Notes: generated from the letters alone by a model not told the origin. DNA of 64,000 nucleotides from Staphylococcus sp. CAG:324 (GCA_000433035.1 FR890814.1:5443-69442); one strand, 5' to 3'; counted from the stretch's first letter, positions 13,167-46,706 are shown. A program made the numbers and translations.

Positions 13167-13251
13167 ATAAAATTTAACACATTTTGTCGAAAACGTTTTC
13201 TGATAATTTTTCTTTACTTTTTTTTTTTAATATATTATAATATTAGAGTAA

Positions 13252-13320
13252 AAGTCATATATTTCTGATAATATGGTTCAGAAGTCTCTACATTATCACC
13301 GTAAATGATAATACTATGGT
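13252..13320 (+). ncRNA. Purine riboswitch of the guanine class (C at the discriminator position).
   Basis: UCAUAUA...UCUGA-UAAUAUGGU-UCAGA...AGUCUCUACA...UUAUCA-CCGUAAA-UGAUAA...UAC-UAUGG matches the P1/P2/P3 layout of the xpt G-box. An upstream TATAAT lies at 13236-13241. Confidence 0.6.
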
Positions 13321-13394
13321 AACAATTGAATAATTGCTTAAAAACCGCTGTTATGGCTTTTTACAACAAAAAATTTTTAAGGAGGACTTCTTTA

Positions 13395-24489: not shown

Positions 24490-24976
24490 TTACCTTTTTT
24501 AACTCATCAATATTTAAAAAGAATCCATTATTATTGCGATATTCAATAATTGCAGTAGCTTTTGTAATTCCAATTTTAGGAATCATCATTAATTGATCTA
24601 TAGTACAAGTATTGATGTTGATTGGTTCTTGTTCTAAATTATCAATTGTATTAGAAGGAATAACAATTTTAATATTTTCATTGATAATACTAACCAAATT
24701 AATATTATCTAAATTGGCATTTATTGTAACTCCCCCAGCTAATTCAATTACATCATTGACTAAAGAACCAACTTCTATTTTATATATACCAGGATATATC
24801 ACCTCGCCTCTAATATCTACCATACAATATTCTTGCTGATTGGTATTGAAAGAGGCACTAGAATCAGAACTTAACTCGGGGGAGTTATTACAAGCGTTCA
24901 AAAACAATATAATAGAAATTATACCAATAAATAAAAGTTTTCTAATCTTATATAGCATATGTAATGCCTCCTTCAC
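24437..24976 (-). CDS. comEA: Competence protein ComEA (helix-hairpin-helix DNA receptor).
   Basis: C-terminal tandem HhH (IDQLMMIPKIGITKATAIIEYR...ELKKVSGIGNALFEEI). Confidence 0.8.
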   Translation of the reverse strand: MKEALHMLYKIRKLLFIGIISIILFLNACNNSPELSSDSSASFNTNQQEYCMVDIRGEVIYPGIYKIEVGSLVNDVIELAGGVTINANLDNINLVSIINENIKIVIPSNTIDNLEQEPININTCTIDQLMMIPKIGITKATAIIEYRNNNGFFLNIDELKKVSGIGNALFEEIKVYITI

Positions 24977-31302: not shown

Positions 31303-31799
31303 AAATCGATTACCTTCACAATAATTTTATCTTCTAAAATGTGTATAATATATTCATCTACAAAAGGAATTAACATTTTATCTGCTTTCGTTTTTATTTC
31401 TAAAATATATCCTTGTGGCACTTCAATCAAATCCCAAACTTCACCTAAATTATTGTCATTTTCATCAACCACTTTTAATCCAATCAAATCATCTAAATAA
31501 TACTCATCCGAATTTAATGTTGGAAAATCCTCATATTTAGCATAAATATCACAACCAATATAATGAGAAACTAAATTAATATCGTTTAAGTTATCAATTT
31601 GAATTAAAATCGTTTTTTTATGAATTCTCATTGAAGTAACGACTGCCTCTTTTGCTATTTTTTTACTTTTCAGATAAATATGGGCTCCTATTCTAAAACG
31701 ATAATCTATAAAATCACTTTCAGAATAAATTTTTAATTCCCCTTTTATTCCAAAAACACCAATGATTTTTCCAATATTGATTAATTTATCGCTTTGCAT
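31293..31799 (-). CDS. rimM: 16S rRNA processing protein RimM.
   Basis: Size, the IGKIIGVFGIKGELKI motif, and its position upstream of trmD. Confidence 0.8.
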   Translation of the reverse strand: MQSDKLINIGKIIGVFGIKGELKIYSESDFIDYRFRIGAHIYLKSKKIAKEAVVTSMRIHKKTILIQIDNLNDINLVSHYIGCDIYAKYEDFPTLNSDEYYLDDLIGLKVVDENDNNLGEVWDLIEVPQGYILEIKTKADKMLIPFVDEYIIHILEDKIIVKVIDLCQ

Positions 31800-34215
31800 T
31801 TGTTTGTTCCTCTTTCAAATCTTTTTTATTGTGATATAATCTCATAATTAATAGTGAATTTAAAATTGCTAAAAGAGAAATTCCAACATCAGAAAAAATA
31901 GCAATGCCTAGTGGTAGTTCCATCTTTTCACCATCTTTCGTAACAAAAAATCCTAATAGAATAGCAAGAATCATCACAATAAATTTAACTGTTAAACTTA
32001 AAATGATATTTTGAATTACTTTTCTTCTTGTATATTTTGCAATTTTAAATGCCTCATTAATCTTTAACAAATTATCCCCCATTATTACCATATCAGCAAT
32101 CGCAATGGTAGCATCACTTCCTGTATTCCCCATTGCAATTCCAATATCTGCACTAGCAATAACAGGGGCATCATTGATACCATCGCCTATAAAAATAGTT
32201 TTCCCCACTGATTGTTTTTTAATTTCTTCTAAAATTTCTACTTTTTGATGAGGTAATAATTCTGCATGATATCCATCAACGTCAATTTGCTTGGCCACAC
32301 TGCTAGCAATTGCTACTGAATCCCCCGTTAACATAAAACACTTCTTTCCATATTTGTGCAAATATTTAATCGTTGTAAGGGCTTCTTCTTTAATAACATC
32401 CCCAATTTCAACATATCCTTGATAAATTTTATTCTTTACAATATGAACAACTAAATTACAACTTTCAATTTGAGGTAATTCAATTTTATTCGCATTCATT
32501 AATTTATCATTTCCTATTAAAATTTTGTTGCCATTGATAGTAGCCTTCGCTCCTCCTGTAATATCTTGAAAATCTGTAATAATCTCTGGAAAAATCTTAT
32601 CCCGACCAAAATTATCAACAATTGAAATTCCGATTGGGTGATTAGAATAATATTCCGCATGAATCAATATATTCAATAATCTTTCTTCTGTCACTTCTTC
32701 CACCATTGGAACAACCTTGACAACATTAAAAACGCCTTTTGTAATCGTTCCCGTTTTATCAAAAACAACATTTTCTACCTTATTTAAAGTTTCAATATAA
32801 TTGCTACCTTTAACAAGAATTCCCCTTCTACTACAAGTTCCAATTGAAGAAAAGTAACAAAGAGGAATAGATATAACAAGAGCACAAGGGCATGATATTA
32901 CTAAAAATTCCATTGCAGTATAGATCCAATGTCTAAAATTACTAGTATCAAAGATACTACCTAGAACAGATATCATCAATGCTAAAAATACCACAATAGG
33001 CGTATAATATTTCGCAAAACGTGTAATCATCGTTTCAGCTTTCCCTTTACTGCTCGTAGCATTTTCCACCAAATCCATAATTTTAGAAATCATTGAATCA
33101 CCATATGGTTTAGTAACTTGAATTTCAATAATTTTTCCCATATTAACACTACCACTTAAAATTTCACTACCTATATCAACACTTCTTAACATACTTTCAC
33201 CTGTTAAATTTTTAGTATCAATATTCGTTTTACCATTAAACACTTTTCCATCAGTTGGAATAATTTCACCCTTATTTACAATAACAATATCACCAGGCAT
33301 CAAGGTTTCTACATCTACTTCAGTTATTTCAGTATCTAATTTTAATTTTGCCGTTTTCACATCAAAGTCTAATAAATCTTTGATAGAACGTCTAGAATGA
33401 TTGATGGCTTTATTTTGTAGAAATTCACCAATCTGATATAAAGCAACAACCATTACAGCTTCACTTGCGTGGGATGTACAAAAAGCTCCGATACTTGCAA
33501 CACTCATTAAAAAAGTTTCATCTAATAAATGACCTTTAAATAAATTTTTAAAAAATCTTGTTAAAACGGGATATCCAATTAAAAGATAAGGAACAATGTA
33601 GCAATAAAAAGGAATAACAAAAAAAGCACTAATGATACACATAATAACAAAAATTGTTATACCTGTTGAAAAAGTAATGACGGTTTTCTTAGAAAGTTTT
33701 TTTTCATCTTCAAAGCGCTGAAGTTTATTCATCTTACTATCAACAACAATAATTCGATCATCTACATGATGGGCAATTCGATTTACATTTACAAATAAAT
33801 TATCAATAACATTTTTGCTATACGTTTCAATTATAAATCTACCTGTTGAAAAATCAACAATAATTTGTTCATAATCTAACGATTTTTTCGCAATGGTTTC
33901 AATCCTTGCGGCACAATGAGCACAATCCAAATTCTTTAAATATAGAACTTTCCGATATTTTTCTTTATTATCAATTCTAATCATCATTGCCTTTTTTTCA
34001 TATTCATGAATAGCTTTTAAAATTAGTTCTTCAATTTTAAATAATTCTTGCTCAGTTAATTCTAAAGTTGAATCATATTCAATATGTATTACATTTTTAC
34101 TATTTTCAATAGAAACTGATTTAATCGGTTCAATCTTTTTGATTTCATTGCATATTCTTTTAAAATTTTTATTACTGGTAACTTTTAAAAGTTGATAATT
34201 CTTAACTTGAATCAT
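31786..34215 (-). CDS. Heavy-metal P1B-type ATPase with an N-terminal HMA domain (LDCAHCAARIE) and a CPC motif.
   Basis: VISCPCALVISIPL, DKTGTITKG and GDGINDAP. Its 3' end overlaps the rimM start by 14 nt. Confidence 0.85.
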   Translation of the reverse strand: MIQVKNYQLLKVTSNKNFKRICNEIKKIEPIKSVSIENSKNVIHIEYDSTLELTEQELFKIEELILKAIHEYEKKAMMIRIDNKEKYRKVLYLKNLDCAHCAARIETIAKKSLDYEQIIVDFSTGRFIIETYSKNVIDNLFVNVNRIAHHVDDRIIVVDSKMNKLQRFEDEKKLSKKTVITFSTGITIFVIMCIISAFFVIPFYCYIVPYLLIGYPVLTRFFKNLFKGHLLDETFLMSVASIGAFCTSHASEAVMVVALYQIGEFLQNKAINHSRRSIKDLLDFDVKTAKLKLDTEITEVDVETLMPGDIVIVNKGEIIPTDGKVFNGKTNIDTKNLTGESMLRSVDIGSEILSGSVNMGKIIEIQVTKPYGDSMISKIMDLVENATSSKGKAETMITRFAKYYTPIVVFLALMISVLGSIFDTSNFRHWIYTAMEFLVISCPCALVISIPLCYFSSIGTCSRRGILVKGSNYIETLNKVENVVFDKTGTITKGVFNVVKVVPMVEEVTEERLLNILIHAEYYSNHPIGISIVDNFGRDKIFPEIITDFQDITGGAKATINGNKILIGNDKLMNANKIELPQIESCNLVVHIVKNKIYQGYVEIGDVIKEEALTTIKYLHKYGKKCFMLTGDSVAIASSVAKQIDVDGYHAELLPHQKVEILEEIKKQSVGKTIFIGDGINDAPVIASADIGIAMGNTGSDATIAIADMVIMGDNLLKINEAFKIAKYTRRKVIQNIILSLTVKFIVMILAILLGFFVTKDGEKMELPLGIAIFSDVGISLLAILNSLLIMRLYHNKKDLKEEQTNAKR

Positions 34216-36610: not shown

Positions 36611-36753
36611 ATGTATCAACCTAACTATGGTTATAATTGTTGCGCACAAACTAATCCTTGTTGTGGCACAGGCAACACATTTGGTGGTTATGGCTACGCT
36701 TTAATCCTTGTGTTATTCATTTTATTAGTAATTATTGGTACTGCACGTTGGTA
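36611..36753 (+). CDS. YjcZ-family small sporulation protein of 47 aa.
   Basis: MYQPNYGYNCCAQTNPCCGTGNTFGGYGYALILVLFILLVIIGTARW. The GYALILVLFILLVIIG hydrophobic tail is typical of YjcZ. The gene has a strong RBS AAGGAGG. It is missing from the ORF track because it is under 60 aa. Confidence 0.6.
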
Positions 36754-36801
36754 ATTTAAACCAAACTCTCAAAAAGGTTCTAGGAGGAACCTTTTTTGAT
36801 T
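36720..36801. repeat. Left copy of an 82-bp direct repeat, comprising the last 34 nt of the yjcZ-like CDS plus its bidirectional terminator (AAAAAGGTTC-taggag-GAACCTTTTT).
   Basis: It matches 45378-45459 at 81 of 82 positions. Confidence 0.8.
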
Positions 36802-38537
36802 TATATTTTATCACTAATCTTTTTTAACATATTGTTAAAAGTAGAATTTTTTCGTTCTCTTAATTGTTTTATAGTTCCATACTCAATAATTTTACCATCA
36901 TTCATTACAATTACTTTGTCACAATTTAAAATATTATAAATACGATGAGAAGTAATCAACATTATTTTATCATTCATTTTATATAATTTACTTAATATAT
37001 CTTTTTCATTTGTTACATCTAGTGCTGAGGTGATTTCATCTAATAAAAATAATTTAGCATTTTTGTATATTGCATTTGCAATATTAATACGTTGAATTTC
37101 ACCACCTGATAAATTATCCTCATAATTTGAAATTTTTGTTTTATCTTTTTCTGGCAAACTTTCAATTAAATTATTTAATTTAGCCTCTTCTATACTTTTT
37201 TGATAATTTTTTTCATCAAATTCAAGTGGATAAATAATATTATCCCTTATACTAACATTAAATAATTTTAAATCTTGTTGTACATATGCAATATTATTTC
37301 TCAAAGAAAATAAACTAATTTTATTTAAATCTATATTATTAATAAGAATTTGTCCTTCATTAGGAATTATGATTCTAGTTATTAAATCAAAAAGTGTTGT
37401 TTTCCCTCCTCCAGACATTCCTACTATACCTAATTTTTCTCCTTTTTCAACTTTAAAATTTAATTTTTTTACTTCGAACAATCCATCACCATATTTAAAA
37501 CTTACATCAATAAATTCAATACTATAGATATCGTCTATATTAATACCATCATATATATTTGTTTCTGGTTCTATGCTATAAATTTCATCCAGCTTTTCCA
37601 TAGAATTTTTTATAATTTTTGAAGAAATATTTACATTTAATAGCACTCTAAAAGAGCTATAAATTTTAGGTATTATTGTTAAAAAAGATATTAATATACC
37701 AGTTGTTATAGTACTAAAATCTTTTATAATATACCATATTCCAATAAAAATTATTACAATATACATTATATTTATTATTAAATCTCCCATTATAAATCTA
37801 TTTAAGCTATGAGTAATTGAAGTCTTTTTTTTATGCTTATAAAGGCTATCAAGCCATAAATTAAATTTTTCATTTTCCTTTTGGTGGCCATTTGTTATTT
37901 TAATTTTTTTTATTCTTTTGCATGAAGTCAAAATTAATTCTTGACCACTTTCTAAAATCTCAATATATTCTTTATCATTTTTTTTACTAATCTTGGAAAT
38001 AAATTTAGCTAAAAAATAAAATAGAGGAAATAAAGCAAAAATAATTATTGCAAATTTTTTATCAATTTTAATCATTGTTATAACAACAATTAATAAAAAT
38101 ATACTTTCAGAAAAAAAGCCAACAATATCATTTACAAAATAAACTTCTCCAATCTTCCCTGTTTCTCTAGTTATTCTTGACATAACCTGAGAATCACTAT
38201 ATTTATTTATTTTTAAATATTTTGCATTTAATACACACTCAAAAGCAGTCCTTCTCAATGATGAAGTAATATAATTACCAAGCTTAGTTGATAAAAATGT
38301 TTTAAAAATATCTAATAATAATAACGATAATGATATACTAATCATTTTAATTATTATTATTATTAACAAATTTACATCTTTATTAGGAACTACTTTATCT
38401 ATGATATCTACTATTATTAATGAATTCTTTAATTTTAAATAGGAAATTGCTATCATTAAAATTATTAATATTATTATTATAAATATTTGTTTTTTTGTAC
38501 AATTTACAAGTATTTTATGTGTATTAATTGTTTTCAT
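36801..38537 (-). CDS. ABC transporter with fused permease and ATPase domains (lasso peptide D-type exporter; RiPP export and immunity).
   Basis: N-terminal 6-TM domain. Walker A GMSGGGKTT, signature LSGGE and Walker B LLDEITSALD. Its stop codon abuts the direct repeat. Confidence 0.75.
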   Translation of the reverse strand: MKTINTHKILVNCTKKQIFIIIILIILMIAISYLKLKNSLIIVDIIDKVVPNKDVNLLIIIIIKMISISLSLLLLDIFKTFLSTKLGNYITSSLRRTAFECVLNAKYLKINKYSDSQVMSRITRETGKIGEVYFVNDIVGFFSESIFLLIVVITMIKIDKKFAIIIFALFPLFYFLAKFISKISKKNDKEYIEILESGQELILTSCKRIKKIKITNGHQKENEKFNLWLDSLYKHKKKTSITHSLNRFIMGDLIINIMYIVIIFIGIWYIIKDFSTITTGILISFLTIIPKIYSSFRVLLNVNISSKIIKNSMEKLDEIYSIEPETNIYDGINIDDIYSIEFIDVSFKYGDGLFEVKKLNFKVEKGEKLGIVGMSGGGKTTLFDLITRIIIPNEGQILINNIDLNKISLFSLRNNIAYVQQDLKLFNVSIRDNIIYPLEFDEKNYQKSIEEAKLNNLIESLPEKDKTKISNYEDNLSGGEIQRINIANAIYKNAKLFLLDEITSALDVTNEKDILSKLYKMNDKIMLITSHRIYNILNCDKVIVMNDGKIIEYGTIKQLRERKNSTFNNMLKKISDKI

Positions 38538-39852
38538 TTGTATACCTCTTGTTAAAAATAGTATATTTTAGATTATAATCTATATCATTTTTTTTATAAT
38601 TTATATTTAAATTACTATTATTTAATTTCTCTATCATATAAAACTTTAATATTTTAAAAACAAGTTGGCACCAATTATAATTAAAATCATTAGTATTATC
38701 ATATATTGCTTTACAACCACCTCCACAATGATAAAATGCAAAACATTTATTACAATTTTTTAATTTATCATTATTATTTTTTACTATATTATTAACATTA
38801 TTATTATCTATTTCTATAGTTTTATTTATCTCCCCTATTTTATATAAATTATTTTTTGAATTTTTATCAAATTGAATGCAAGATGTTAAAAATCCATTTG
38901 GATGACAATATATTGTATTTAACGAAGTTCCTTTACAATATCCATTTAATCTCAATTCTTCACCTATAAAAGATTTAGCTCTTTCTTTTAGTACTTTTCT
39001 AGCATCTTTATATATATTTAAATATTCATCATTACTAATAGTATTTATAAAATTATTTCCATCAATAGTAGGAACATATCTTGTAAACTGAACTGATGAT
39101 AATTTTGGAACATTATTTAAAAAAAATTTAGCAATTTTTTCACCAAATCCAATTGATTTATTGGTTAATACTGTATTAAAACTAACTTTGCAATTATTTT
39201 CAGAAATGTATCTAGCATTTTTAATTACTATCATTGTAATGTCCTTACCAGATATACTCTGCCTAGTAAAACCATTTATTTCTGAAGGTCCATCAATTGA
39301 AAAACATACTTCATTAAAATTTTCACTTAACCATTTAGCTTGATTTATACTAAAAAAACCATTTGTTATTATTCTTTTCAAACAAAGAGTATTATTTTCT
39401 TTGCATTTTTTTATTGCATATTGAATAAATCTTTTTAATAATGAAAAATTATATGTTGGCTCACCACCGCCATGAAAAGTTAAGTCAATCCATGGAGTTT
39501 TTTTATTAATAATTTTAGCATTATTTATTAATATATTTACTATTTTTTTATATTTATTAAAACTTAGAAAACTATTATTACAATTAGTGCCAGAAGATGA
39601 ATAACAATATTTACACTTTAACATACATTTGTTACTTATAATTATTGTAGCAGAATTCCCATAATATTTATTCCCTATTATCAATCTAGTTTTGCTATTA
39701 AATTTATTAATTGTTCTACAACCTAAATACTTAAAAACTATATTATTTATATCTTCTATATCCAAATCATTTGCTTCTATTACTAAATCATATTTTGGAA
39801 CATAATAAAATTTTTCCAATTTAAATACATTTAACACATTTTTTTCCTCCAT
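38524..39852 (-). CDS. Radical SAM enzyme with a C-terminal SPASM domain (RiPP maturase).
   Basis: CMLKCKYC is a Cx3Cx2C motif. The C-terminal Cys cluster is CKGTSLNTIYCHPNGFLTSC...CNKCFAFYHCGGGCKAIY. The ~70-aa N-terminal extension may be an RRE. Confidence 0.75.
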   Translation of the reverse strand: MEEKNVLNVFKLEKFYYVPKYDLVIEANDLDIEDINNIVFKYLGCRTINKFNSKTRLIIGNKYYGNSATIIISNKCMLKCKYCYSSSGTNCNNSFLSFNKYKKIVNILINNAKIINKKTPWIDLTFHGGGEPTYNFSLLKRFIQYAIKKCKENNTLCLKRIITNGFFSINQAKWLSENFNEVCFSIDGPSEINGFTRQSISGKDITMIVIKNARYISENNCKVSFNTVLTNKSIGFGEKIAKFFLNNVPKLSSVQFTRYVPTIDGNNFINTISNDEYLNIYKDARKVLKERAKSFIGEELRLNGYCKGTSLNTIYCHPNGFLTSCIQFDKNSKNNLYKIGEINKTIEIDNNNVNNIVKNNNDKLKNCNKCFAFYHCGGGCKAIYDNTNDFNYNWCQLVFKILKFYMIEKLNNSNLNINYKKNDIDYNLKYTIFNKRYTNENN

Positions 39853-39865
39853 TTAAAACTATAAG

Positions 39866-39884
39866 GGAGGATTAATACCTCCCA
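39866..39884 (-). promoter_or_regulatory. GC-rich intercistronic stem-loop GGGAGG-uauuaau-CCUCCC between the precursor and rSAM genes.
   Basis: 6-bp G/C stem in otherwise ~20 % GC DNA. Only a weak U-tract follows, suggesting a partial terminator or processing/stability element of the kind common after RiPP precursor genes. Confidence 0.4.
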
Positions 39885-39902
39885 CTTTGATAAACGTATT
39901 AA

Positions 39903-40016
39903 TTAAGCACATTTATCATAACCATAACCATCATCATTATCTTTTCCAGTTGAACCAGTTAATTCAAACATATCACCTAAAATAATATATGATGGCTTTT
40001 CATAATTATTATTCAT
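39903..40016 (-). CDS. Lasso peptide precursor of 37 aa: MNNNYEKPSYIILGDMFELTG | STGKDNDDGYGYDKCA.
   Basis: RBS AAAGGAGGTG lies 7 nt upstream. The leader matches YxxPxLx3Gx5Tx (Y5, P8, G14, T20; only L is replaced by Y), with the penultimate leader residue Thr. The core begins with Ser, has Asp at positions 7 and 8 for isopeptide formation, and has bulky Tyr in the tail. This is the only sizeable intergenic gap in the operon. Confidence 0.6.
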   Translation of the reverse strand: MNNNYEKPSYIILGDMFELTGSTGKDNDDGYGYDKCA

Positions 40017-40031
40017 TATTGACACCTCCTT

Positions 40032-41468
40032 TCAGACTTTTAATACGGGAAACCTTGATATTTCAATAAATTGCTTTTTTATTATATTAGAATCAGTAAT
40101 AACTATTTCATCTATTTCTACCCATGAATGAAATTCGAATAAATTAGTAATATGATACGAAGATTTACCAATTACGACTTGAGATGGAATTCCAATAGTA
40201 ATTAGTGCTGTACACAAAGATATTGATCTTTCTAAGCATAGCATACCTTCATTATTTTCTTTACCAATCTTACGTAAAATCGGAATAATTTTACTAACAT
40301 AATTACAAAAATCAATACTAGAATAGTTTAAAGTGTTTTGTTCAATTAAATATTTATTTTTATGAAACAAAGTATTTATTAGTTTTATAGCATAAGAAAC
40401 CCCTTTTTTATGAATTAATGAAATAGATTTTATATAATTTCTAGTCATATGTTCAAAATCCGTAGAATTTATTTCAAAAGAATTTTTGACCAATTCTTCG
40501 TTATACAAAAGAGTCATTAATTTATCATAACAAAATGTTTCATTTATATCCATATATAATTGGTTAACATTACATACATTTGGATAATTAACTATATATT
40601 TATCAACATTATTAGCTAAATTAATTAACAAATTTATTTTCTTGTTTAAAAATGGACTCAATATATTTGTTTGATAATTTAAAATATTTTTTATAAAATT
40701 ATAATTATTCAATAATTCTATTTGATATATATTATTTTTTTTAGTTCCTAAAATTATAACTTTACTTAATTTTATAGTATTTTGATATTGTATATTTTGG
40801 AAATAATATTTTTTACTTTTTGTTAATAAAACACTATCAAAATCTATTGGTTGCTTATCTAAACTTTTTTTTATTCCAATACCAACATTAATTCCTTGAC
40901 AATTCAATTGTTTATCTATTATACAAAAAACATCATCACTCAAAATTTCATAATTATATTTATTATTTAATTCTATAGATATTGATGTCTTACCATACCC
41001 AGACTTTCCCAACAACGCTACTCCTTCATTTGTTGTTTTATTAACCAATAATGCTCCATGAAAAATTATTTTGTTATTTTCTAAAAACGCAATGGATAAT
41101 GGATCTAAAAAATACTGAAAAAACATATTTCTTTTATTATATATTTTTTTTATATAGAAAATAAACTTTTTTTTCAAAAATAACCATTTTGCATAACTTC
41201 CATCTTTATAAAAAATATTATATTCTTGATTGTTTTTATCATAAATAAAACTACCAATTAATAATTCATATTTAATTCCTTTCTTATGAATTTTGGGTAT
41301 ATAATTATTATCAAAATTATATTCAAATATGTAACTTTCCTTATTTGCTATATGATTATTTTTACAATTTGAACCTAAAATATTGAATATAAAATTTGTA
41401 TTTTCTAAATCATTCGTTTTTATTTCAAAATTTTCACCAAATACATTAAATTTTAGTATATCATTCAT
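40032..41468 (-). CDS. Fusion protein with an N-terminal HPr-kinase-like (HprK C-terminal domain) kinase and a C-terminal lasso B2 transglutaminase-like leader peptidase.
   Basis: The kinase part reads FHGALLV...GVALLGKSGYGKTSISIEL...ILSDDVFCI, which follows the HprK P-loop pattern HG.lv..G.G.L..G.SG.GKSE.aLEL....L..DD. The peptidase part reads EGMLCLERSISLCTALITIGIPSQVVIGKSS...FEFHSWVEIDEIVITD, giving a Cys-His-Asp triad as in McjB-type B2. Confidence 0.6.
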   Translation of the reverse strand: MNDILKFNVFGENFEIKTNDLENTNFIFNILGSNCKNNHIANKESYIFEYNFDNNYIPKIHKKGIKYELLIGSFIYDKNNQEYNIFYKDGSYAKWLFLKKKFIFYIKKIYNKRNMFFQYFLDPLSIAFLENNKIIFHGALLVNKTTNEGVALLGKSGYGKTSISIELNNKYNYEILSDDVFCIIDKQLNCQGINVGIGIKKSLDKQPIDFDSVLLTKSKKYYFQNIQYQNTIKLSKVIILGTKKNNIYQIELLNNYNFIKNILNYQTNILSPFLNKKINLLINLANNVDKYIVNYPNVCNVNQLYMDINETFCYDKLMTLLYNEELVKNSFEINSTDFEHMTRNYIKSISLIHKKGVSYAIKLINTLFHKNKYLIEQNTLNYSSIDFCNYVSKIIPILRKIGKENNEGMLCLERSISLCTALITIGIPSQVVIGKSSYHITNLFEFHSWVEIDEIVITDSNIIKKQFIEISRFPVLKV

Positions 41469-41721
41469 TTATCAATATTCCAATACTTATCATACTATTA
41501 ACAAATTCGTTGTAATCTTTTTCAATTATACTTGTATCTATATTATATTTTTCTTTCATAAATTGAATAATTTCAAACGAAGTTTTTCCCTTTTTTATTA
41601 AATCTAAAATACAATAACTTGTATAATTTATAGAAATAAATTGTCCATTATTTAAATTAGTAATAATTGCTTCTTCATCTATTAAAGTAATATCAACATT
41701 TTTAGATATATTTAATTTCAT
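41461..41721 (-). CDS. Lasso B1 protein (PqqD-like RiPP recognition element).
   Basis: At 86 aa it fits a PqqD-family fold (TSFEIIQFMKEKYNIDTSIIEKDYNEFVNSMISIGIL). It overlaps both neighbouring genes. Confidence 0.65.
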   Translation of the reverse strand: MKLNISKNVDITLIDEEAIITNLNNGQFISINYTSYCILDLIKKGKTSFEIIQFMKEKYNIDTSIIEKDYNEFVNSMISIGILINE

Positions 41722-43258
41722 AATTTTCCTCCATCTTTTTTAACCAATTAAAAACCAATATTGTATCTATTATTAAAAATTTATATTTTATTATTTCATT
41801 TTTATTATTTAATATTTTATCTATAACTTTAAAATCAAAGAAACAAGAAAAATTACTTTTCTTAATTTGATTTATTTTATAAATTATTTTATCAATTGAA
41901 TTAAATAATAATTTTTCACTTAAAACTCCATAACAACTTTTTGAATTTCTTGAAATTATAGAAAAAGGTATATTTTCTTTAAAAGCAAATTTTAAAATAG
42001 GTTTAGCAATGATTTTTCCACCATAAGGTAATGCTTTATAAATTTTAGGAATACTATTTGAGAAAGATATTAAATCTTTATCTATATATGGATTTATATC
42101 TATTACATTATATTTATTAGCTAAATATAATCTCATTGCTTCTCTTTGTAATAAAACCGCATATAGTCTTTGATTATTTGACTTAACATTTTCACATTTA
42201 ATAAATGTTTTTTTTCCTTCTATTTGTTCATTTATAACATATGGAACATCTATAAATTCTACAATTCCATTTAAATGATTTAAATACGATTTTTTAAAAA
42301 AACTACTAACATTTATAAATATTTTATCGTCATTAAATCTTTGTAAATATCCTCCAAAAATTCCATCACCATTTAATCCACTTAAAATATACTTTATATT
42401 TTTTTCTTTCATAAATTGGTAGGTTTTATCCCACCAATAAATACTTGTATGAATAAATGGATATATAATATTTTCATTTAATAATAAATATTCATCTATA
42501 TTATTAATTTTATCAGACATATCAATAAATATTAATTGAATATTATATCTTTTACAAAACTCTACTGCAAAATTACTTTCATCCACTTGATAATATTTAT
42601 TTGATGTCCAATGTATACAAATAAAGTCTTTCTTTAATAAATATAAACAATAAGCAATTACAATAGAATCTATTCCACCACTCATTGAAACACAAATTTT
42701 ACTATTTATTCCTTTTGTTCTTTTTTCTACTGACTTAATAACCAATTTTTTTGCTTCTTTTACGTAATCATTAAAAGTATATAAATTATATTTTATATCC
42801 TTTTCAATACAATTTTGATAAAGTATCTTTAATTTATTATTATCTATTGATACTAAAGTTCCATAATCTATTAATTTTATATTATTAAAAGGAAAAAAAT
42901 AATTTCTTTGTATAATTCCTAATATAGCTTGTTTATCAATTTCAATTATTTCTTTTTTTAAATATAAATTATAGTAATCATCTGTTACTAACAGCATATT
43001 ATTTATATTTTTATAATATAATATGACATTTGATGTATTGGATATATATATATAATCTAAACCTCTATAATTAAAAATTAAAATACAGTCTCCATCAATT
43101 TCTTGAAATTTAATACCATTATCTATAAATAAAAGAATTTTTTCAATAATATTTTTAATATCATCAAATATTCTTCCTAATACAATTATTTTGATTAAAT
43201 TATTATGAACTTTAATCTGATATTCTTCCTTATATGTTTTAGTAATTATAATTTTCAT
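41702..43258 (-). CDS. Lasso cyclase C (asparagine synthetase B-like, ATP-dependent macrolactam synthetase).
   Basis: PP-loop SMSGGIDS. Size and neighbourhood fit. Confidence 0.65.
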   Translation of the reverse strand: MKIIITKTYKEEYQIKVHNNLIKIIVLGRIFDDIKNIIEKILLFIDNGIKFQEIDGDCILIFNYRGLDYIYISNTSNVILYYKNINNMLLVTDDYYNLYLKKEIIEIDKQAILGIIQRNYFFPFNNIKLIDYGTLVSIDNNKLKILYQNCIEKDIKYNLYTFNDYVKEAKKLVIKSVEKRTKGINSKICVSMSGGIDSIVIAYCLYLLKKDFICIHWTSNKYYQVDESNFAVEFCKRYNIQLIFIDMSDKINNIDEYLLLNENIIYPFIHTSIYWWDKTYQFMKEKNIKYILSGLNGDGIFGGYLQRFNDDKIFINVSSFFKKSYLNHLNGIVEFIDVPYVINEQIEGKKTFIKCENVKSNNQRLYAVLLQREAMRLYLANKYNVIDINPYIDKDLISFSNSIPKIYKALPYGGKIIAKPILKFAFKENIPFSIISRNSKSCYGVLSEKLLFNSIDKIIYKINQIKKSNFSCFFDFKVIDKILNNKNEIIKYKFLIIDTILVFNWLKKMEENYEIKYI

Positions 43259-43274
43259 AATTAATACCTACATT

Positions 43275-44759
43275 TTATTTTATCAATAATGGTTTTCTAT
43301 AATATGGCTGTATACAAAAACATTTAAAAATAGAATTATTTTTTAATTTATACAAATACATATTAAATCCAATATTTCTATTTATATCTAAATAATGAGG
43401 AAATTTATTTAAATCAATTATTAAAGTTGTTTCTACTAATCCATTCTTAATTTTAACTATTTCATCAATATACCCATAATAAAATTCCTTTTCTTTTTCA
43501 TAATCATATAAAGAATTAAATGTTGGTGCATAAAATAAACTTTTTATTATATTATTATTTATCATACGTAAAGTTATAGGTATATATGGATCTATAAATT
43601 CACCAGTTTTTCTATATCCAAATATATTTAAATGAATTACCATATTTTCTTCCATTCTAGGTTTTATTTGTATATATAAAAGATTATCTTTTTTTATGTA
43701 TTTAAAATCAGTTATTATATTGTTGTAAAATACTAAATGATGAGGTAATACCTTATTTCTTTTTGTAAAATTAAAATAACCTAAATAATATTTTTCAAAA
43801 TATTTAATTAATTCTAAATTATTAAAAAATCTATCAAATATAGCCAAATTATCTAATAAATCATCATTATCTTTAATTTTATTTTTTAATAACTTTTTAC
43901 ATTTCAATAAAATAGTTTTATCATTAAAAATATAACTTAACTCTAAAAATATTTTGGATACCATTTTTAATGAAACATTATTATAACGTAAAATAAAAAT
44001 TATTTCATGATAGTCAAAATAAATAAAATATTTTTTTATGTACAAATATAAATCAATTGCATATTGTAAATTTATTTTTTTTTGATTTCTTAAAAACTCT
44101 ATATTTCTTGTAAACTCTAAATAATATATAATTAAACAACAAAATGTTTCATTTAAATTAAATGTTTTTACATTATTAGATAATATTTCTATTTGATTAA
44201 TTGTTTTTATTAGAGGTTTATACAAATGAAATTTTGTTTTTAATTCAATAGTAATAACTTGTTTTTTATATATTACTAATATCTTTTTTTCTCCACAAAT
44301 TTCAATTGTTTTATTCCTTATATCTTTAAATTTTTTAAATTTATTTCTAACTAAATCTACAAACTTTTCCTCTTCATCATTACTAATAATAATATCTATA
44401 TCATCAAACTGTCTTATATTATGTAAATCATATATTAATTTTTCTAAAATTATTCCTTTATAAAGGATATAATTTATATGGTTTTCTTCAAGTAGCTTTA
44501 TTAATTCAATAAATACTTCATTATATATATTTTTTTTTACTAATAAATATTTTTTTATACTATGAATTTTATTTGCAATATTTAAAAATTTTTTAATATT
44601 TAATAATTTAGAATAAAACCTTAAAAATATTTTTTGATTATATAATAATCTTAGCACTTCCTGACAATCAATGTCTGCAAAATAATCATTTTCTAGATTT
44701 TCATTCCTTATTAAACTTACTATAAATTTTTCTTCTTTTTTTATAATTTTTTCCTCCAT
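43275..44759 (-). CDS. Putative nucleotidyltransferase (NTP_transf_5-like) of the kind found in Firmicute kinase-associated lasso clusters.
   Basis: YKGIILEKLIYDLHNIRQFDDIDIIIS is a GS/hG...D.D-type nucleotidyltransferase motif. Confidence 0.45.
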   Translation of the reverse strand: MEEKIIKKEEKFIVSLIRNENLENDYFADIDCQEVLRLLYNQKIFLRFYSKLLNIKKFLNIANKIHSIKKYLLVKKNIYNEVFIELIKLLEENHINYILYKGIILEKLIYDLHNIRQFDDIDIIISNDEEEKFVDLVRNKFKKFKDIRNKTIEICGEKKILVIYKKQVITIELKTKFHLYKPLIKTINQIEILSNNVKTFNLNETFCCLIIYYLEFTRNIEFLRNQKKINLQYAIDLYLYIKKYFIYFDYHEIIFILRYNNVSLKMVSKIFLELSYIFNDKTILLKCKKLLKNKIKDNDDLLDNLAIFDRFFNNLELIKYFEKYYLGYFNFTKRNKVLPHHLVFYNNIITDFKYIKKDNLLYIQIKPRMEENMVIHLNIFGYRKTGEFIDPYIPITLRMINNNIIKSLFYAPTFNSLYDYEKEKEFYYGYIDEIVKIKNGLVETTLIIDLNKFPHYLDINRNIGFNMYLYKLKNNSIFKCFCIQPYYRKPLLIK

Positions 44760-44782
44760 TAAAATATTTTAAATATAAAATT

Positions 44783-45259
44783 TTATAATAAAAATTCACA
44801 TAATGTTTGATTATTATAATCCCCATAATAATAATCTATCAATTCTAAAGATTTTCCATTTATTTTAAATAACTCTAAATTAATATTTTTTTGTGAAATA
44901 TTTTTAAAAAATTCTATATCTTTTTTTACTATTTTTTGAATTTCTAATTGTTTTATATATGAATTTATAGTAAACTCACTTAAACTTTTAGACAAATTTA
45001 AACTTTCAATTTCATAACAATATTCCATTGAATCATAATTTATTGGCATACTATTGGTAACAAATATATTATTATTATCATTTCTAATTATTATTGGGTA
45101 ATTGCAATTATAATTATCTATAAAATTAATAAATAAAATATAATTAATAAAAGTGATTTGGTTATCAAAAAAGCAATTGATTATTAATTTTTCATTTTTT
45201 AAAATAATTTGTATTTTAATATCTCTTACTTTAGTATTAATAATTTTTTTAGATTCCAT
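44783..45259 (-). CDS. Hypothetical protein of 158 aa, the first gene of the island operon.
   Basis: Intact ORF with a GGAGG RBS. Confidence 0.35.
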   Translation of the reverse strand: MESKKIINTKVRDIKIQIILKNEKLIINCFFDNQITFINYILFINFIDNYNCNYPIIIRNDNNNIFVTNSMPINYDSMEYCYEIESLNLSKSLSEFTINSYIKQLEIQKIVKKDIEFFKNISQKNINLELFKINGKSLELIDYYYGDYNNQTLCEFLL

Positions 45260-45302
45260 AAATACTTAACCTCCATTATATATTTAAATAATTTTCGATT
45301 TT

Positions 45303-45345
45303 ATTATACATTTTTTTGTGTGTATATTTTGTCAATATTTGTAAA
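45303..45345 (-). promoter_or_regulatory. Island operon promoter with an extended -10 TGTATAAT and an upstream TTGACA at non-canonical spacing.
   Basis: Minus strand reads TTGACAAAATATACACACAAAAAAATGTATAATAAAATCG. Confidence 0.4.
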
Positions 45346-45377
45346 AAAAATTAAATAAATAATATTTATATATTATT

Positions 45378-45459
45378 TTTTATTAGTAATTATTGGTACT
45401 GCACGTTGGTAATTTAAACCAAACTCTCAAAAAGGTTCTAGAAGGAACCTTTTTTGATT
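45378..45459. repeat. Right copy of the 82-bp direct repeat. It is an orphan duplicate of the yjcZ 3' end plus terminator and carries one G-to-A difference in the terminator loop.
   Basis: It aligns to 36720-36801. Confidence 0.8.
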
Positions 45460-46127
45460 GAATAATCATTAATAAACTTGTTTTCATTCATTACTAAAAA
45501 AAATATTGATTATTTATAACTTATCAACCATAAAAGTACATCATAGAATACATGTAAATGATAAAAATTTCAAAACATATCAACATTACCAAATAGCCAA
45601 AAGATTGTTCAAGGCAGAAACTATTGAAATATTGAAAGAAGCAAATAAAGAACCATATAAAAATTATTCTCCCTCTTCAACCAGTCTAATTCTAATGCCT
45701 ATTGTTGGCAAAACTGCTCACTATTCTTTCTACCTCAAACAAATACATACATAAAAACTACAATCGGTCAAACTATTACTCAAATATTGACTAAAATGAA
45801 CAATAATGAATTGCTCTTCATCATCTAGTATCATTACAAGTATGGAATAAAAATAGACCTCTTCACAATTGATAAATTACATATGATTTTCTAATGGTTC
45901 TTTAGTAAAATTTAAAATAAATATTATTCTATTCTTCACAATACATGAAGCATTTCAATGTCATTATTTATAATAATACTAGTGCAACTACTATAGATGA
46001 TAAGATAGAATTAGAATACGATATGAAACATAAATTTGGTTAATCAAAAATTTTTTAAAAACTAAGTCTAATTTATTTCTTTTATTCTCTTTTTTTAGTA
46101 TAATAAATTCAAAGAGGTAACAAAATT

Positions 46128-46706
46128 ATGATTTTAATGAAAGATATTATTAAAGAAGGAAATCCTATCCTTCGTCAAAAATGCCTTGATGTAGAACTTC
46201 CTTTAAAAGAGGCCGATGAAAAAATAATTCAAACTATGATTGAGTATTTGATAAACTCTCAAGATGATGAACTTGCTAAAAAATACAATTTAAGACCTGG
46301 CGTAGGTCTTGCGGCACCCCAAATTGGAATAAATAAAAACATGTTGGTTATTTTAGCCTATGATGAAGATGGTAACTTTCATTTTTACCCAATGATTAAT
46401 CCAAAACTTTTAAGTTACTCTGAAGAAAAAACTTATTTAGAAGGTGGTGAAGGATGTCTTTCGGTTGATCGCGAGGTCAATGGATATGTGCATAGAGCTA
46501 AACGAGTCACTGTCGAAACAAATTTATATAATCACGGAAACCTTGTTCACACAAGGTTACGACTTAAAAACTATATCTCAGTTGTTTTTCAACATGAATA
46601 CGATCATTTAAACGGCATCTTATTTGTAGATCGTATTAATCACCAAAATCCTTTTGAAATTTTGCCTAATTCAACTGCAGTCAAATTTAAAAATGATGAT
46701 GAATAG
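46128..46706 (+). CDS. def: Peptide deformylase.
   Basis: GVGLAAPQIG, EGCLSV and QHEYDHLNG motifs. Confidence 0.85.
   Translation: MILMKDIIKEGNPILRQKCLDVELPLKEADEKIIQTMIEYLINSQDDELAKKYNLRPGVGLAAPQIGINKNMLVILAYDEDGNFHFYPMINPKLLSYSEEKTYLEGGEGCLSVDREVNGYVHRAKRVTVETNLYNHGNLVHTRLRLKNYISVVFQHEYDHLNGILFVDRINHQNPFEILPNSTAVKFKNDDE

What the first reader, a model, noticed from the sequence alone, without database searches (positions are those of the whole stretch)
36720..45459. Island bounded by 82-bp direct repeats that duplicate the 3' end and terminator of a yjcZ-like sporulation gene, with no integrase aboard
The 82-bp segment at 36720-36801 reappears at 45378-45459 with one mismatch. The segment is the last 34 nt of the 47-aa YjcZ-family CDS plus its bidirectional hairpin terminator.

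Everything between the repeats is the RiPP operon. That stretch looks noticeably more AT-rich than the flanking chromosome, and the ABC gene stop codon ends at the last base of the repeat.

This is the att-site-like signature of site-specific insertion into a small gene's 3' end. No recombinase, transposase or relaxase is present, however. Either the element was mobilised in trans or the recombinase was lost. The ORF-free 670 bp just outside the right repeat (45460-46127) may hold its remnants.
Basis: seen in the sequence. Interest (0 to 1): 0.7.

Follow-up and report, generated by a model that had tools for sequence, protein, structure and literature searches.

The report
Recombinase-free lasso-peptide island at yjcZ
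An 8.7-kb, very AT-rich gene cluster for a lasso peptide is present in some strains of an uncultured human-gut bacterium and absent from others; it sits cleanly behind a small sporulation gene, bracketed by an 82-bp duplication of that gene's end, carries no recombination enzyme, and most likely spreads and is lost by ordinary homologous recombination.

Summary
An 82-nt direct repeat (36720-36801 / 45378-45459, one mismatch) brackets 8,576 bp at 18.7% GC, against 28.5% for the rest of the window. The bracketed DNA is one minus-strand lasso-peptide operon.

Conspecific metagenome contigs show precise empty sites: yjcZ, a single repeat copy, then def.

The duplicated segment includes the species-specific yjcZ terminator, so it is host sequence. 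No recombinase is encoded in the island or within 10 kb on either side.

The 668-bp ORF-free stretch to the right is the native yjcZ-def spacer, also present in empty strains. It is not a recombinase remnant.

Nine island copies differ at only 6 SNPs, while their flanks are about 8-fold more diverse and share polymorphisms with empty strains. This fits one recent acquisition spread by homologous recombination.

Two other species (L032/L103, L033) carry different recombinase-less cargo between a yjcZ gene and a second, dead yjcZ copy, with recombination breakpoints inside yjcZ.

Best reading: a non-autonomous islet in a yjcZ-bracketed hotspot serviced by host recombination. How the founding duplication arose is unresolved, and an integrase acting in trans is not excluded.

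The parts
36611..36754 (+). yjcZ-like gene (47 aa, YjcZ_2 family), the target gene. It is intact in both occupied and empty strains.
   Evidence: Pfam PF09680, E=2.6e-9. An identical protein is found on thousands of contigs.
36720..36801 (+). Left copy of the 82-nt direct repeat: the last 35 nt of the yjcZ CDS plus its terminator region.
   Evidence: It is identical to the single copy found in empty-site strains.
36771..36796 (.). Intrinsic-terminator hairpin with an A-tract and a T-tract, so it could act in both directions. It lies downstream of both yjcZ (+) and the island's ABC gene (-).
   Evidence: Terminator scan. Fold energy is -12.5 kcal/mol on the + strand and -12.9 on the - strand.
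36801..38537 (-). ABC exporter (578 aa), the last gene of the island operon. Its stop codon overlaps the last base of the repeat.
   Evidence: ABC_membrane + ABC_tran. Bacteriocin-type exporters are among its NCBIfam hits.
38524..39852 (-). Radical SAM/SPASM peptide maturase (442 aa).
   Evidence: Radical_SAM and Fer4_12. PapB- and SCIFF-like thioether maturase hits, all below the curated cut-offs.
39903..40016 (-). Candidate lasso precursor (37 aa): MNNNYEKPSYIILGDMFELTG / STGKDNDDGYGYDKCA.
   Evidence: ORF. Gene callers on other contigs call a 37-aa product here. Thr at -2 and Asp at core positions 7/8 are read directly from the sequence. No family hit.
40032..41468 (-). Fusion protein (478 aa): an HPr-kinase-like N-terminal part and a transglutaminase-like lasso B2 protease.
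   Evidence: Transglut_core3 E=2.3e-7; Hpr_kinase_C weak, E=1.2e-3. lasso_biosyn_B2. A source names it from 'Staphylococcus sp. CAG:324'.
41461..41721 (-). PqqD-like leader-recognition protein (lasso B1).
   Evidence: PF05402, E=2.4e-10. Lasso PqqD families.
41702..43258 (-). Asparagine-synthase-like lasso cyclase (518 aa).
   Evidence: Asn_synthase E=1.3e-16. Only 5 of 1.84 billion representative proteins reach E<=1e-30.
43275..44759 (-). NTP_transf_5 nucleotidyltransferase-like protein (494 aa).
   Evidence: PF14907, E=1.4e-11.
44783..45259 (-). First gene of the operon, 158 aa, function unknown.
   Evidence: No Pfam, NCBIfam or PHROG hit. Low-confidence, mainly beta-strand model (pLDDT 56) with no significant PDB match.
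45260..45377 (-). 118-nt island-borne leader/promoter region. This is the only non-coding island DNA next to a repeat.
   Evidence: Sequence. A weak promoter-like match at 45326-45298, not above chance.
45378..45459 (+). Right copy of the 82-nt repeat: a displaced yjcZ 3' fragment plus terminator. It has A at 45442 in this strain.
   Evidence: Five of nine occupied sequences have both copies identical.
45498..45506 (.). 'Patch': 9 nt (AAAAAAATA) where empty strains have 34 nt. It is perfectly linked to the presence of the island.
   Evidence: No template for it elsewhere in the window.
45460..46127 (.). Native yjcZ-def intergenic spacer. It is not part of the island.
   Evidence: Present and collinear in all empty-site strains. 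No mscL, Pfam, PHROG or Rfam signal.
46128..46706 (+). Peptide deformylase (def), the right-hand core gene.
   Evidence: PF01327, E=2.2e-38. The UPF0223-yjcZ-def order is conserved in many related MAGs.

Best explanation
The 8,658-bp unit (8,576 bp of foreign DNA plus one 82-bp repeat copy) is a non-autonomous accessory islet. It is a lasso-peptide biosynthetic operon acquired once, recently, by this uncultured low-GC gut Bacilli species.

It sits immediately after the yjcZ terminator. The two 82-bp repeats are a duplication of the host's own yjcZ 3' end and terminator, made at or fixed since the founding insertion.

The islet has no recombinase. It is passed between strains by host (RecA-type) homologous recombination of imported DNA, with crossovers in the flanks or in the repeats. 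It can be lost again by recombination between the two repeats or by replacement with an empty allele.

Shown: the insertion/empty-site polymorphism, the host origin of the repeat, the absence of any recombinase, the very low diversity of the island inside diverse recombining flanks, and the same bracket with other cargo and intragenic recombination breakpoints in other species.

Inferred: that DNA uptake plus homologous recombination is the vehicle, and that the founding duplication arose without a site-specific recombinase. Candidates are a Campbell-type or 'ends-in' integration, or a break or template-switch repair event at the terminator.
For: - Empty sites are exact: left flank, one repeat copy, right flank.
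- The right copy carries the species-specific terminator. The sister species L015/L021 differs at 3 loop bases and has an unalignable downstream spacer. So the duplicated DNA is host DNA, not a foreign attP.
- No recombinase is found in any island ORF, nor among the Pfam-annotated genes 10 kb to either side. There is no spare DNA for a lost one: 0 nt lie between the ABC stop codon and the left repeat, and 118 nt at the right end.
- Nine island copies show 6 SNPs in 8,576 bp (pi 0.0003). In the same strains the 11.2-kb right flank has 61 polymorphic SNP columns, and 22 of these are also polymorphic among empty strains. Only the patch at +39 to +71 is fixed between the two states.
- comEC and comEA lie in the window.
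- In L032/L103 and L033, a yjcZ gene and a second yjcZ copy with a dead start codon bracket three different cargos: a protein-kinase and DNA-methylase set, RhuM + HTH, and a single ORF. None has a recombinase.
- L103 is a mosaic with switches inside yjcZ: upstream 98/100 L032-like; copy-1 5' half 62/66 L033-like; cargo edge 51/60 L033-like. The 3' halves of the two copies are 78/78 identical within a genome, which indicates gene conversion.
- yjcZ is the best-conserved DNA in the neighbourhood: 99.3% identity to the sister species, against 86-97% for neighbouring genes. Its last 35 nt match at 28-34 of 35 positions across the family.
- This fits the described class of HGT hotspots that lack mobile-element genes and are serviced by recombination at flanking core genes (PMC5635113).
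Against: - Homologous recombination explains spread and loss, but not how an 82-bp duplication first formed around foreign DNA that shares no homology with the host.
- Direct repeats that restore the 3' end of a target gene, plus a dyad-symmetric hairpin, are the classic signature of integrase-mediated insertion.
- Three species with insertions at the same gene could equally reflect site specificity.
- The census for integrase-bearing occupants is limited: only the 24 longest-contig blocks are read per look-up.
- No clean example of repeat-by-repeat deletion was found. The one candidate contig (L106) is a ~1x-coverage mosaic and may be an assembly chimera.
- Competence is inferred from two genes only.
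Confidence: 0.5

Rival explanations
1. CIME-like element. The islet was inserted by a tyrosine or serine site-specific recombinase that recognises the yjcZ 3' end and terminator. That recombinase is either supplied in trans by another element or was once aboard and is now lost. The 82-bp repeats are then attL and attR and could still be used for excision or accretion.
For: The architecture matches: direct repeats, a reconstituted target gene, a hairpin in the repeat, and exact empty sites. The same gene is the insertion point in three species. CIMEs are defined as elements that kept attL/attR but lost their integration and transfer genes (PMC5704250).
Against: No integrase was found in the island, within 10 kb, or in either of the other two bracketed islands. 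There is no pseudogene space at either end. No integrase-bearing occupant was seen at this site in roughly 100 contigs read from 17 or more species. The repeat is absent from 2.9 million viral contigs and from the phage and plasmid records. Repeat lengths differ greatly between species (82 nt versus about 130-165 nt) and always match the host's own non-conserved terminator. Linkage of the patch to the island gives no sign of repeated excision and reintegration.
Confidence: 0.25
2. Relic of a tandem yjcZ paralogue. An older tandem duplication of yjcZ left a second copy, truncated here to 35 nt plus the terminator. The operon landed between the copies by an unrelated illegitimate event. Empty strains would then have collapsed the two copies by recombination.
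For: In L032, L033 and L103 the second copy is a near-full-length gene with a mutated or frameshifted start codon, that is, a pseudogenised paralogue. Gene conversion can keep old copies identical.
Against: No species among those examined has two yjcZ copies without cargo between them. The sister species and at least 10 other relatives have one copy. In this species the second copy occurs only together with the island, and the island is young (pi 0.0003). A foreign 8.6-kb insertion exactly at the junction of a pre-existing duplication needs two coincident rare events.
Confidence: 0.13
3. Assembly artefact: a repeat-induced misjoin that places an unrelated contig behind yjcZ.
For: The sequence comes from an uncultured organism known from metagenome assemblies, and the repeat is longer than common k-mer sizes.
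Against: The same junctions, to the base, occur in at least 8 independent assemblies from different studies and assemblers, with island SNPs that form a consistent tree.
Confidence: 0.02

Closest known systems
[quoted passage not shown] 2017, PMC5635113)
   Same: It lies between conserved core genes (UPF0223/yjcZ and def). Accessory content varies between strains and species. There is no integrase or transposase. Flanking polymorphisms are shuffled between occupied and empty alleles. DNA-uptake genes are present.
   Different: The hotspot model does not predict a duplication of the flanking gene's 3' end around the cargo. Here, and in two other species, the cargo is bracketed by yjcZ-derived direct repeats, and those repeats themselves carry the recombination breakpoints.
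CIMEs (cis-mobilizable elements: attL/attR retained, integration and transfer genes lost; PMC5704250)
   Same: A recombinase-less DNA segment bounded by direct repeats, one of which completes the 3' end of the target gene.
   Different: No related autonomous ICE or IME was found that uses this site, and there are no decayed mobility genes. The repeats are 82-165 nt of host-specific sequence rather than a short conserved core. Three unrelated cargos all lack recombinases.
Campbell-type insertion-duplication, and transformation-triggered duplications by alternative pairing (Johnston et al. 2013, PMC3784515)
   Same: The end product is cargo flanked by a direct duplication of one chromosomal segment. 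It needs only host recombination and donor DNA that carries that segment.
   Different: Those cases involve laboratory constructs or 100-900-kb tandem duplications between IS-derived repeats. No natural donor circle carrying 82 bp of yjcZ has been seen here.
Paeninodin-type lasso-peptide clusters of Firmicutes (C, B1, B2, ABC exporter, HPr-kinase-like enzyme, nucleotidyltransferase). The comparison rests on my own knowledge of that family.
   Same: The gene set matches: Asn-synthase-like cyclase, PqqD, transglutaminase-like protease, ABC exporter, a kinase-like domain and NTP_transf_5.
   Different: The kinase-like part is fused to B2. A SPASM radical-SAM thioether-type maturase is added. The precursor ends in Cys-Ala, not Ser. 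The cyclase has no relative above 41% identity among 1.84 billion representative proteins.

Membership tests
Integrase-encoding integrative element (genomic island sensu stricto, IME, ICE, prophage) | Encodes a tyrosine, serine or DDE recombinase | tested here: not met
   All 8 island ORFs were scanned against Pfam and NCBIfam, and 3 against PHROGs, with no recombinase family hit. The only unannotated ORF (158 aa) gives a low-confidence beta-rich model with no PDB match.
Integrase-encoding integrative element (genomic island sensu stricto, IME, ICE, prophage) | Bounded by direct repeats, one of which restores the target gene; an exact empty site exists in relatives | tested here: met
   82-nt repeats. 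Empty sites have a single copy and matching flanks.
Integrase-encoding integrative element (genomic island sensu stricto, IME, ICE, prophage) | Excises to a circle and leaves a restored attB | tested here: inconclusive
   One contig (L106) has yjcZ, a single repeat with the attR-type A, and the occupied-type patch. But it is a ~1x-coverage contig with private errors and a divergent tail, so a chimera is possible. No circular junction could be searched for at read level.
CIME (cis-mobilizable element) | [quoted passage not shown] | tested here: met
   Met structurally: repeats are present and no mobility genes are found.
CIME (cis-mobilizable element) | Derives from, or shares its att site with, an autonomous ICE or IME of the same specificity | tested here: not met
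   No integrase-bearing occupant of the yjcZ site was found in the contigs read for this species, in 15 related species, or in two further species. Nothing was found in viral, phage or plasmid collections. Sampling is limited.
Transposon or IS-bounded composite element | Transposase, terminal inverted repeats, and a short (2-15 bp) target-site duplication | tested here: not met
   There is no transposase. The duplication is 82 bp. The only inverted similarity is an imperfect 29/39 AT-rich match, not at the termini (3 of 300 shuffles do as well).
MGE-free HGT hotspot serviced by homologous recombination | A fixed position between core genes, with accessory content that differs among strains and species | tested here: met
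   UPF0223-yjcZ-def synteny holds across MAGs. States seen: empty or lasso operon in this species; three other cargos in L032, L033 and L103.
MGE-free HGT hotspot serviced by homologous recombination | Signs of homologous recombination in the flanking DNA | tested here: met
   22 SNP columns in the 11.2-kb right flank are polymorphic in both occupied and empty strains. Island diversity is about 8-fold lower than flank diversity. L103 is a mosaic with breakpoints inside yjcZ.
Lasso-peptide biosynthetic gene cluster | Asn-synthase-like cyclase (C), PqqD-like RRE (B1) and transglutaminase-like leader protease (B2) | tested here: met
   Pfam hits are above the gathering thresholds. The NCBIfam lasso-specific models hit, but below their curated cut-offs.
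Lasso-peptide biosynthetic gene cluster | Precursor with Thr at -2 of the leader, and a core that starts with Gly/Ala/Ser/Cys and has Asp/Glu at position 7-9 | tested here: met
   The 37-aa ORF reads ...FELTG/STGKDNDDGYGYDKCA: Thr at -2, Ser1, Asp7/Asp8. This is read from the sequence; the product has not been shown.

The most novel reading that the evidence does not exclude
The yjcZ 3' end and terminator may be the target of a recombinase-independent way of loading cargo in gut Bacilli. One version: a break or template switch at the terminator hairpin captures foreign DNA and re-primes upstream. This would create a target duplication whose right edge is fixed at the terminator T-run and whose left edge varies (35 nt before the stop codon here; the start codon in L032/L033/L103). 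It might also leave a repair scar, which could be the linked 34-to-9-nt patch. The unusually conserved yjcZ copies would then act as portable homology arms, allowing whole cargos to be exchanged between strains and even species by two crossovers inside one small gene.
Probability: 0.15. Interest if true: 0.7.

Novelty: new variant of a known kind. Interest (0 to 1): 0.45.

Why it matters
Many accessory-gene hotspots in bacterial genomes lack any mobile-element gene, and how DNA first enters them is an open question. This locus offers a compact, well-sampled case: exact empty and occupied alleles in one abundant gut species, a host-derived 82-bp bracket, and the same bracket around other cargo in related species. 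A repeat-bracketed design would make a biosynthetic operon both easy to import (homology to one tiny, highly conserved gene is enough) and easy to lose precisely.

Separately, the cargo is a lasso-peptide cluster with an added radical-SAM maturase. It has essentially no relatives in public data and is carried by some but not all strains of a common human-gut bacterium. That makes it a candidate strain-level competition factor.

Tried and rejected
- **Recombinase remnants in 45460-46127:** rejected. The stretch is collinear with the spacer of empty strains. Its 82-aa ORF has no Pfam or PHROG hit and there is no Rfam match at E<=1.
- **Decayed mscL in that spacer** (mscL lies between yjcZ and def in L032/L033/L035): no tblastn signal.
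- **Phage, ICE or plasmid source:** the 32-nt core and a degenerate yjcZ 3' pattern gave no hit in viral contigs. The whole island gave no megablast hit in plasmids or phages. A 62-nt exact pattern gave no hit in one-genome-per-species contigs.
- **Donor lineage:** the cyclase and B2 proteins have no useful relatives, so no donor context could be examined.
- **Transposon reading:** no convincing terminal inverted repeats.
- **A second repeat-bracketed islet in the window or in the sister lineage:** none. The only other long direct repeat in the window is a pair of paralogous ATPase genes. The rSAM islet of L015/L018 has no flanking repeats.
- **More occupied yjcZ sites in other species:** two further look-ups (P0008, P0046) showed only empty sites.
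- **L106 as proof of excision:** downgraded after its flank proved to be a low-coverage mosaic.
- **The GC-rich motif at the cargo edge of L033/L103 as a possible recombination site:** it is the Rfam DUF3800-XI RNA motif.
- **Xer/dif-type (IMEX) insertion:** considered from memory only. The repeat does not resemble Firmicute dif sites by eye. Not formally tested.
- **Literature on yjcZ as an integration site:** nothing relevant.

Full report
**Observation**

The 82-nt segment at 36720-36801 is repeated at 45378-45459 with a single difference: G36784 versus A45442. A search allowing 3 mismatches finds exactly these two copies, and no match appeared in any of 100 dinucleotide-preserving shuffles.

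The left copy is the last 35 nt (stop codon included) of a 47-aa ORF that matches Pfam YjcZ_2, followed by a hairpin with an A-tract and a T-tract. A terminator scan detects this hairpin at 36771-36796. Both copies fold to -12.5 kcal/mol, and the G/A difference lies in the loop.

The 578-aa ABC-transporter ORF on the minus strand ends at 36801, so its stop codon overlaps the last base of the repeat.

The unique DNA between the copies (36802-45377, 8,576 bp) has 18.7% GC. The rest of the window has 28.5%, and no equal-sized window elsewhere falls below 25.4%. Third-codon-position GC is 9.9% in island genes against 17.3% in flanking genes.

**What lies between the repeats**

All genes are on the minus strand and tightly packed:
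- a 158-aa protein with no family hit;
- an NTP_transf_5 protein;
- an asparagine-synthase-like cyclase;
- a PqqD-like protein;
- a fusion of a weak HPr-kinase-like region with a transglutaminase-like lasso B2 protease;
- a 37-aa precursor candidate (MNNNYEKPSYIILGDMFELTG/STGKDNDDGYGYDKCA);
- a radical-SAM/SPASM maturase that resembles thioether-forming enzymes;
- an ABC exporter.

This is a lasso-peptide cluster, not a generic RiPP operon. It is an isolated one. A full HMMER pass over 1.84 billion representative proteins finds only five proteins at E<=1e-30 for the cyclase, the best non-self at 41% identity. Word-index searches for the cyclase and for B2 return essentially only themselves. 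One source names the B2 protein as from 'Staphylococcus sp. CAG:324'. The closest species representative found through def is labelled 'uncultured Mollicutes bacterium UMGS116'.

No island ORF hits a recombinase, transposase or relaxase family in Pfam or NCBIfam, nor do the three ORFs scanned against PHROGs. The 158-aa ORF gives a low-confidence, mostly beta-strand model with no significant PDB match, so it remains unassigned.

**Empty sites exist and are exact**

I looked up contigs that encode the identical def and YjcZ proteins. This returned long human-gut metagenome contigs in two states.
- Eight distinct contigs have yjcZ followed directly by def.
- Eight others, plus the window, carry the operon.

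Empty contigs hold one copy of the 82 nt. Their left flank equals the window's sequence to the left of 36720, and their right flank equals the sequence to the right of 45459. Four further empty sites and two attL junctions came from a metagenome scan.

Among the contigs read, the occupied state accounted for roughly half to three-quarters.

The sister species (L015/L018/L021, def 92% identical) and at least ten more distant relatives have one yjcZ copy and no island. The single-copy state is therefore ancestral and the island is an insertion.

**The ORF-free 668 bp is not a remnant**

The stretch 45460-46127 aligns end to end with the yjcZ-def spacer of the empty strains. It has no Pfam or PHROG hit for its one 82-aa ORF and no Rfam match even at E<=1. 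It also shows no trace of the mscL gene that occupies this position in some relatives.

The only consistent difference between states is a small replacement 38 nt beyond the repeat. Occupied alleles have AAAAAAATA (about 45498-45506) where empty alleles have 34 nt. The two forms are perfectly linked to island presence in 9 occupied and 12 empty sequences. I could not find a template for it. It stays unexplained: it may be a scar of the founding event or a polymorphism that hitch-hiked with it.

**The duplicated DNA is host DNA**

The coding part of the repeat is conserved across the family, but the terminator part is not. The sister species differs at three loop bases and its downstream spacer is unalignable. 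More distant species have quite different hairpins. The island-distal copy nevertheless carries this species' own terminator. In five of nine occupied sequences it is identical to the left copy. A foreign element at 18.7% GC would not be expected to bring a perfect copy of 82 nt of host-specific sequence, unless it had already cycled through this species.

**Age and spread**

The nine island copies differ at six SNPs and one homopolymer length, and these form a consistent tree. The four sequences with A at the attR loop fall into two related subgroups.

In the same strains the 11.2 kb to the right of the island has 61 polymorphic SNP columns. Of these, 22 are also polymorphic among empty strains. 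The only fixed differences between the states lie in the patch. The 10 kb to the left shows the same mixing, with no fixed difference within 5.5 kb.

So the island is much younger than the variation around it, and it now sits on different backgrounds. The simplest reading is one acquisition followed by transfer of the occupied allele through homologous recombination. comEC and comEA lie 12-14 kb upstream in the window, so at least part of a DNA-uptake machinery is encoded.

**The same bracket in other species**

Among relatives retrieved through def, two have a second yjcZ-derived copy.
- **L032:** a 164-nt direct repeat (98% identity) runs from just after the yjcZ start codon to the end of the terminator. 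It brackets 8.3 kb that encode a protein kinase, two DNA methyltransferases, a DUF6996/6997/7226 protein and a DUF4209 protein.
- **L033:** a shorter copy with an internal deletion brackets a RhuM-family gene and an HTH gene.
- **L103:** a metagenome contig of the L032-like species has two copies 1.3 kb apart around a single ORF.

In all three the distal copy has a dead start codon (ACG, or a frameshift), and none of the cargos encodes a recombinase.

L103 is a mosaic:
- its upstream DNA is 98/100 L032-like;
- the 5' half of its first yjcZ copy (62/66) and the adjacent cargo edge (51/60) are L033-like;
- the distal copy and the downstream DNA are L032-like;
- the 3' halves of the two copies are 78/78 identical within L103, and likewise within L032.

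That pattern is what cargo replacement by crossovers inside yjcZ, followed by gene conversion between the copies, would leave.

yjcZ is also the best-conserved DNA in the neighbourhood. It is 99.3% identical to the sister species, against 86-97% for neighbouring genes, and the last 35 nt match at 28-34 of 35 positions across the family.

Two further species examined showed only empty sites. The small radical-SAM islet that the sister lineage carries on the other side of def has no flanking repeats. The bracket is therefore a property of the yjcZ site, not of every islet.

**Tests of the integrase reading**

No integrase-bearing element occupies this site in any contig read. The repeat and a degenerate yjcZ 3' pattern are absent from 2.9 million viral contigs. 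The island has no megablast match in plasmid or phage records.

There is no room for a decayed integrase. The ABC stop codon abuts the left repeat, and only 118 nt separate the first gene from the right repeat.

The island ends show only a weak, AT-rich, non-terminal inverted similarity (29/39; 3 of 300 shuffles do as well), so a transposon is unlikely.

One contig, L106, has yjcZ, a single repeat with the attR-type A, and the occupied-type patch. That is the sequence expected after precise loss. However, it is a ~1x-coverage contig with private differences and a divergent tail. A chimera through the 64 nt shared upstream of the G/A site cannot be excluded. I count it as weak evidence only.

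**Mechanism**

*Shown:*
- a clean insertion with an 82-bp duplication of host sequence;
- no recombinase;
- a young island in recombining flanks;
- recurrent yjcZ brackets with swapped cargo and intragenic breakpoints elsewhere.

*Inferred:*
- The islet is non-autonomous.
- It moves between strains as part of imported chromosomal DNA by host homologous recombination.
- It is lost by replacement with an empty allele or by recombination between the repeats.

A bracketed cargo can in principle be installed in a single-copy recipient by two crossovers within the one gene, the left one upstream of the right one. So homology to yjcZ alone would be enough.

*Not explained:* the founding duplication. 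The candidates are:
- a Campbell-type or 'ends-in' integration of DNA that carried one copy of the segment;
- a break or template-switch repair event at the terminator. This would fit a duplication whose right edge sits at the terminator T-run in every case (+4 nt here, +0 in L033/L103, about +12 in L032) while the left edge varies;
- a site-specific recombinase acting in trans.

I put about 0.5 on the recombinase-free, homologous-recombination-serviced reading. I put 0.25 on a CIME-like origin, 0.13 on a relic yjcZ paralogue plus an unrelated insertion, and 0.02 on an artefact.

**Comparison with what is known**

The locus behaves like the hotspots described by Oliveira et al. Those lack mobility genes and show recombination at flanking core genes (PMC5635113). 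It differs in being bracketed by a duplication of the flanking gene.

It resembles a CIME, an element with attL/attR retained and integration genes lost (PMC5704250). It fails the test of having a related autonomous element at the same site.

Its end product is what insertion-duplication or alternative pairing during transformation produces (PMC3784515), but no natural donor has been seen.

I therefore rate it a new variant of a known kind. It is of moderate interest for the unresolved bracket mechanism, with additional value from the unusual, strain-variable lasso-peptide cluster it carries.

Noticed in passing
window 22285-24976 (-): comEC (734 aa; Competence + Lactamase_B domains) and comEA (179 aa; SLBB + HHH_3) sit side by side. 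DNA-uptake genes are thus present in this uncultured gut Bacilli genome.
   Followed up: partly
window 13235-13336 (+): Purine riboswitch aptamer (RF00167, 76.8 bits). It is the only Rfam gathering-level hit in the window.
   Followed up: no
window 38524-41468 (-): The lasso cluster is atypical. It has a SPASM radical-SAM maturase of the thioether-forming type next to a precursor that ends in ...DKCA. It also has an HPr-kinase-like region fused to the B2 protease. The cyclase and B2 have almost no relatives in public protein collections.
   Followed up: partly
L015 11527-14650; also in L018 and L021: The sister lineage carries a different small islet on the other side of def: a 171-aa radical-SAM protein, a 40-aa ORF, a 272-aa protein and others. 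L018 has extra ABC-like fragments. It has no flanking direct repeats.
   Followed up: partly
L033 7464-7511 (-); L103 2216-2263 (+): A DUF3800-XI RNA motif (RF02975; 58 and 50 bits) lies at the yjcZ-proximal edge of the cargo in two different species, just after the terminator of the first yjcZ copy.
   Followed up: partly
L032 2283-8661: The cargo in the yjcZ bracket of a water-deer gut MAG looks like a defence island. It encodes a Ser/Thr protein kinase, N6_N4 and Dam-type DNA methyltransferases, a DUF6996/6997/7226 protein and a DUF4209 protein.
   Followed up: no
window 45498-45506, compared with L001 about 9345-9378: A 34-to-9-nt replacement lies 38 nt beyond the right repeat. It is perfectly linked to island presence, even though recombination breakpoints occur within 180 nt of it. 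Its origin is unknown.
   Followed up: partly
window 25071-27008 and 31786-34215 (-): Two paralogous P-type (E1-E2) ATPase genes lie 6.7 kb apart. They account for the only other long direct repeat in the window.
   Followed up: no
window 36611-36754 and homologues in L015-L036: yjcZ is far more conserved at the nucleotide level than its neighbours. It is 99.3% identical to the sister species, against 86.5-97% for the five neighbouring genes compared. Synonymous sites seem constrained, or else homogenised by exchange between lineages.
   Followed up: partly
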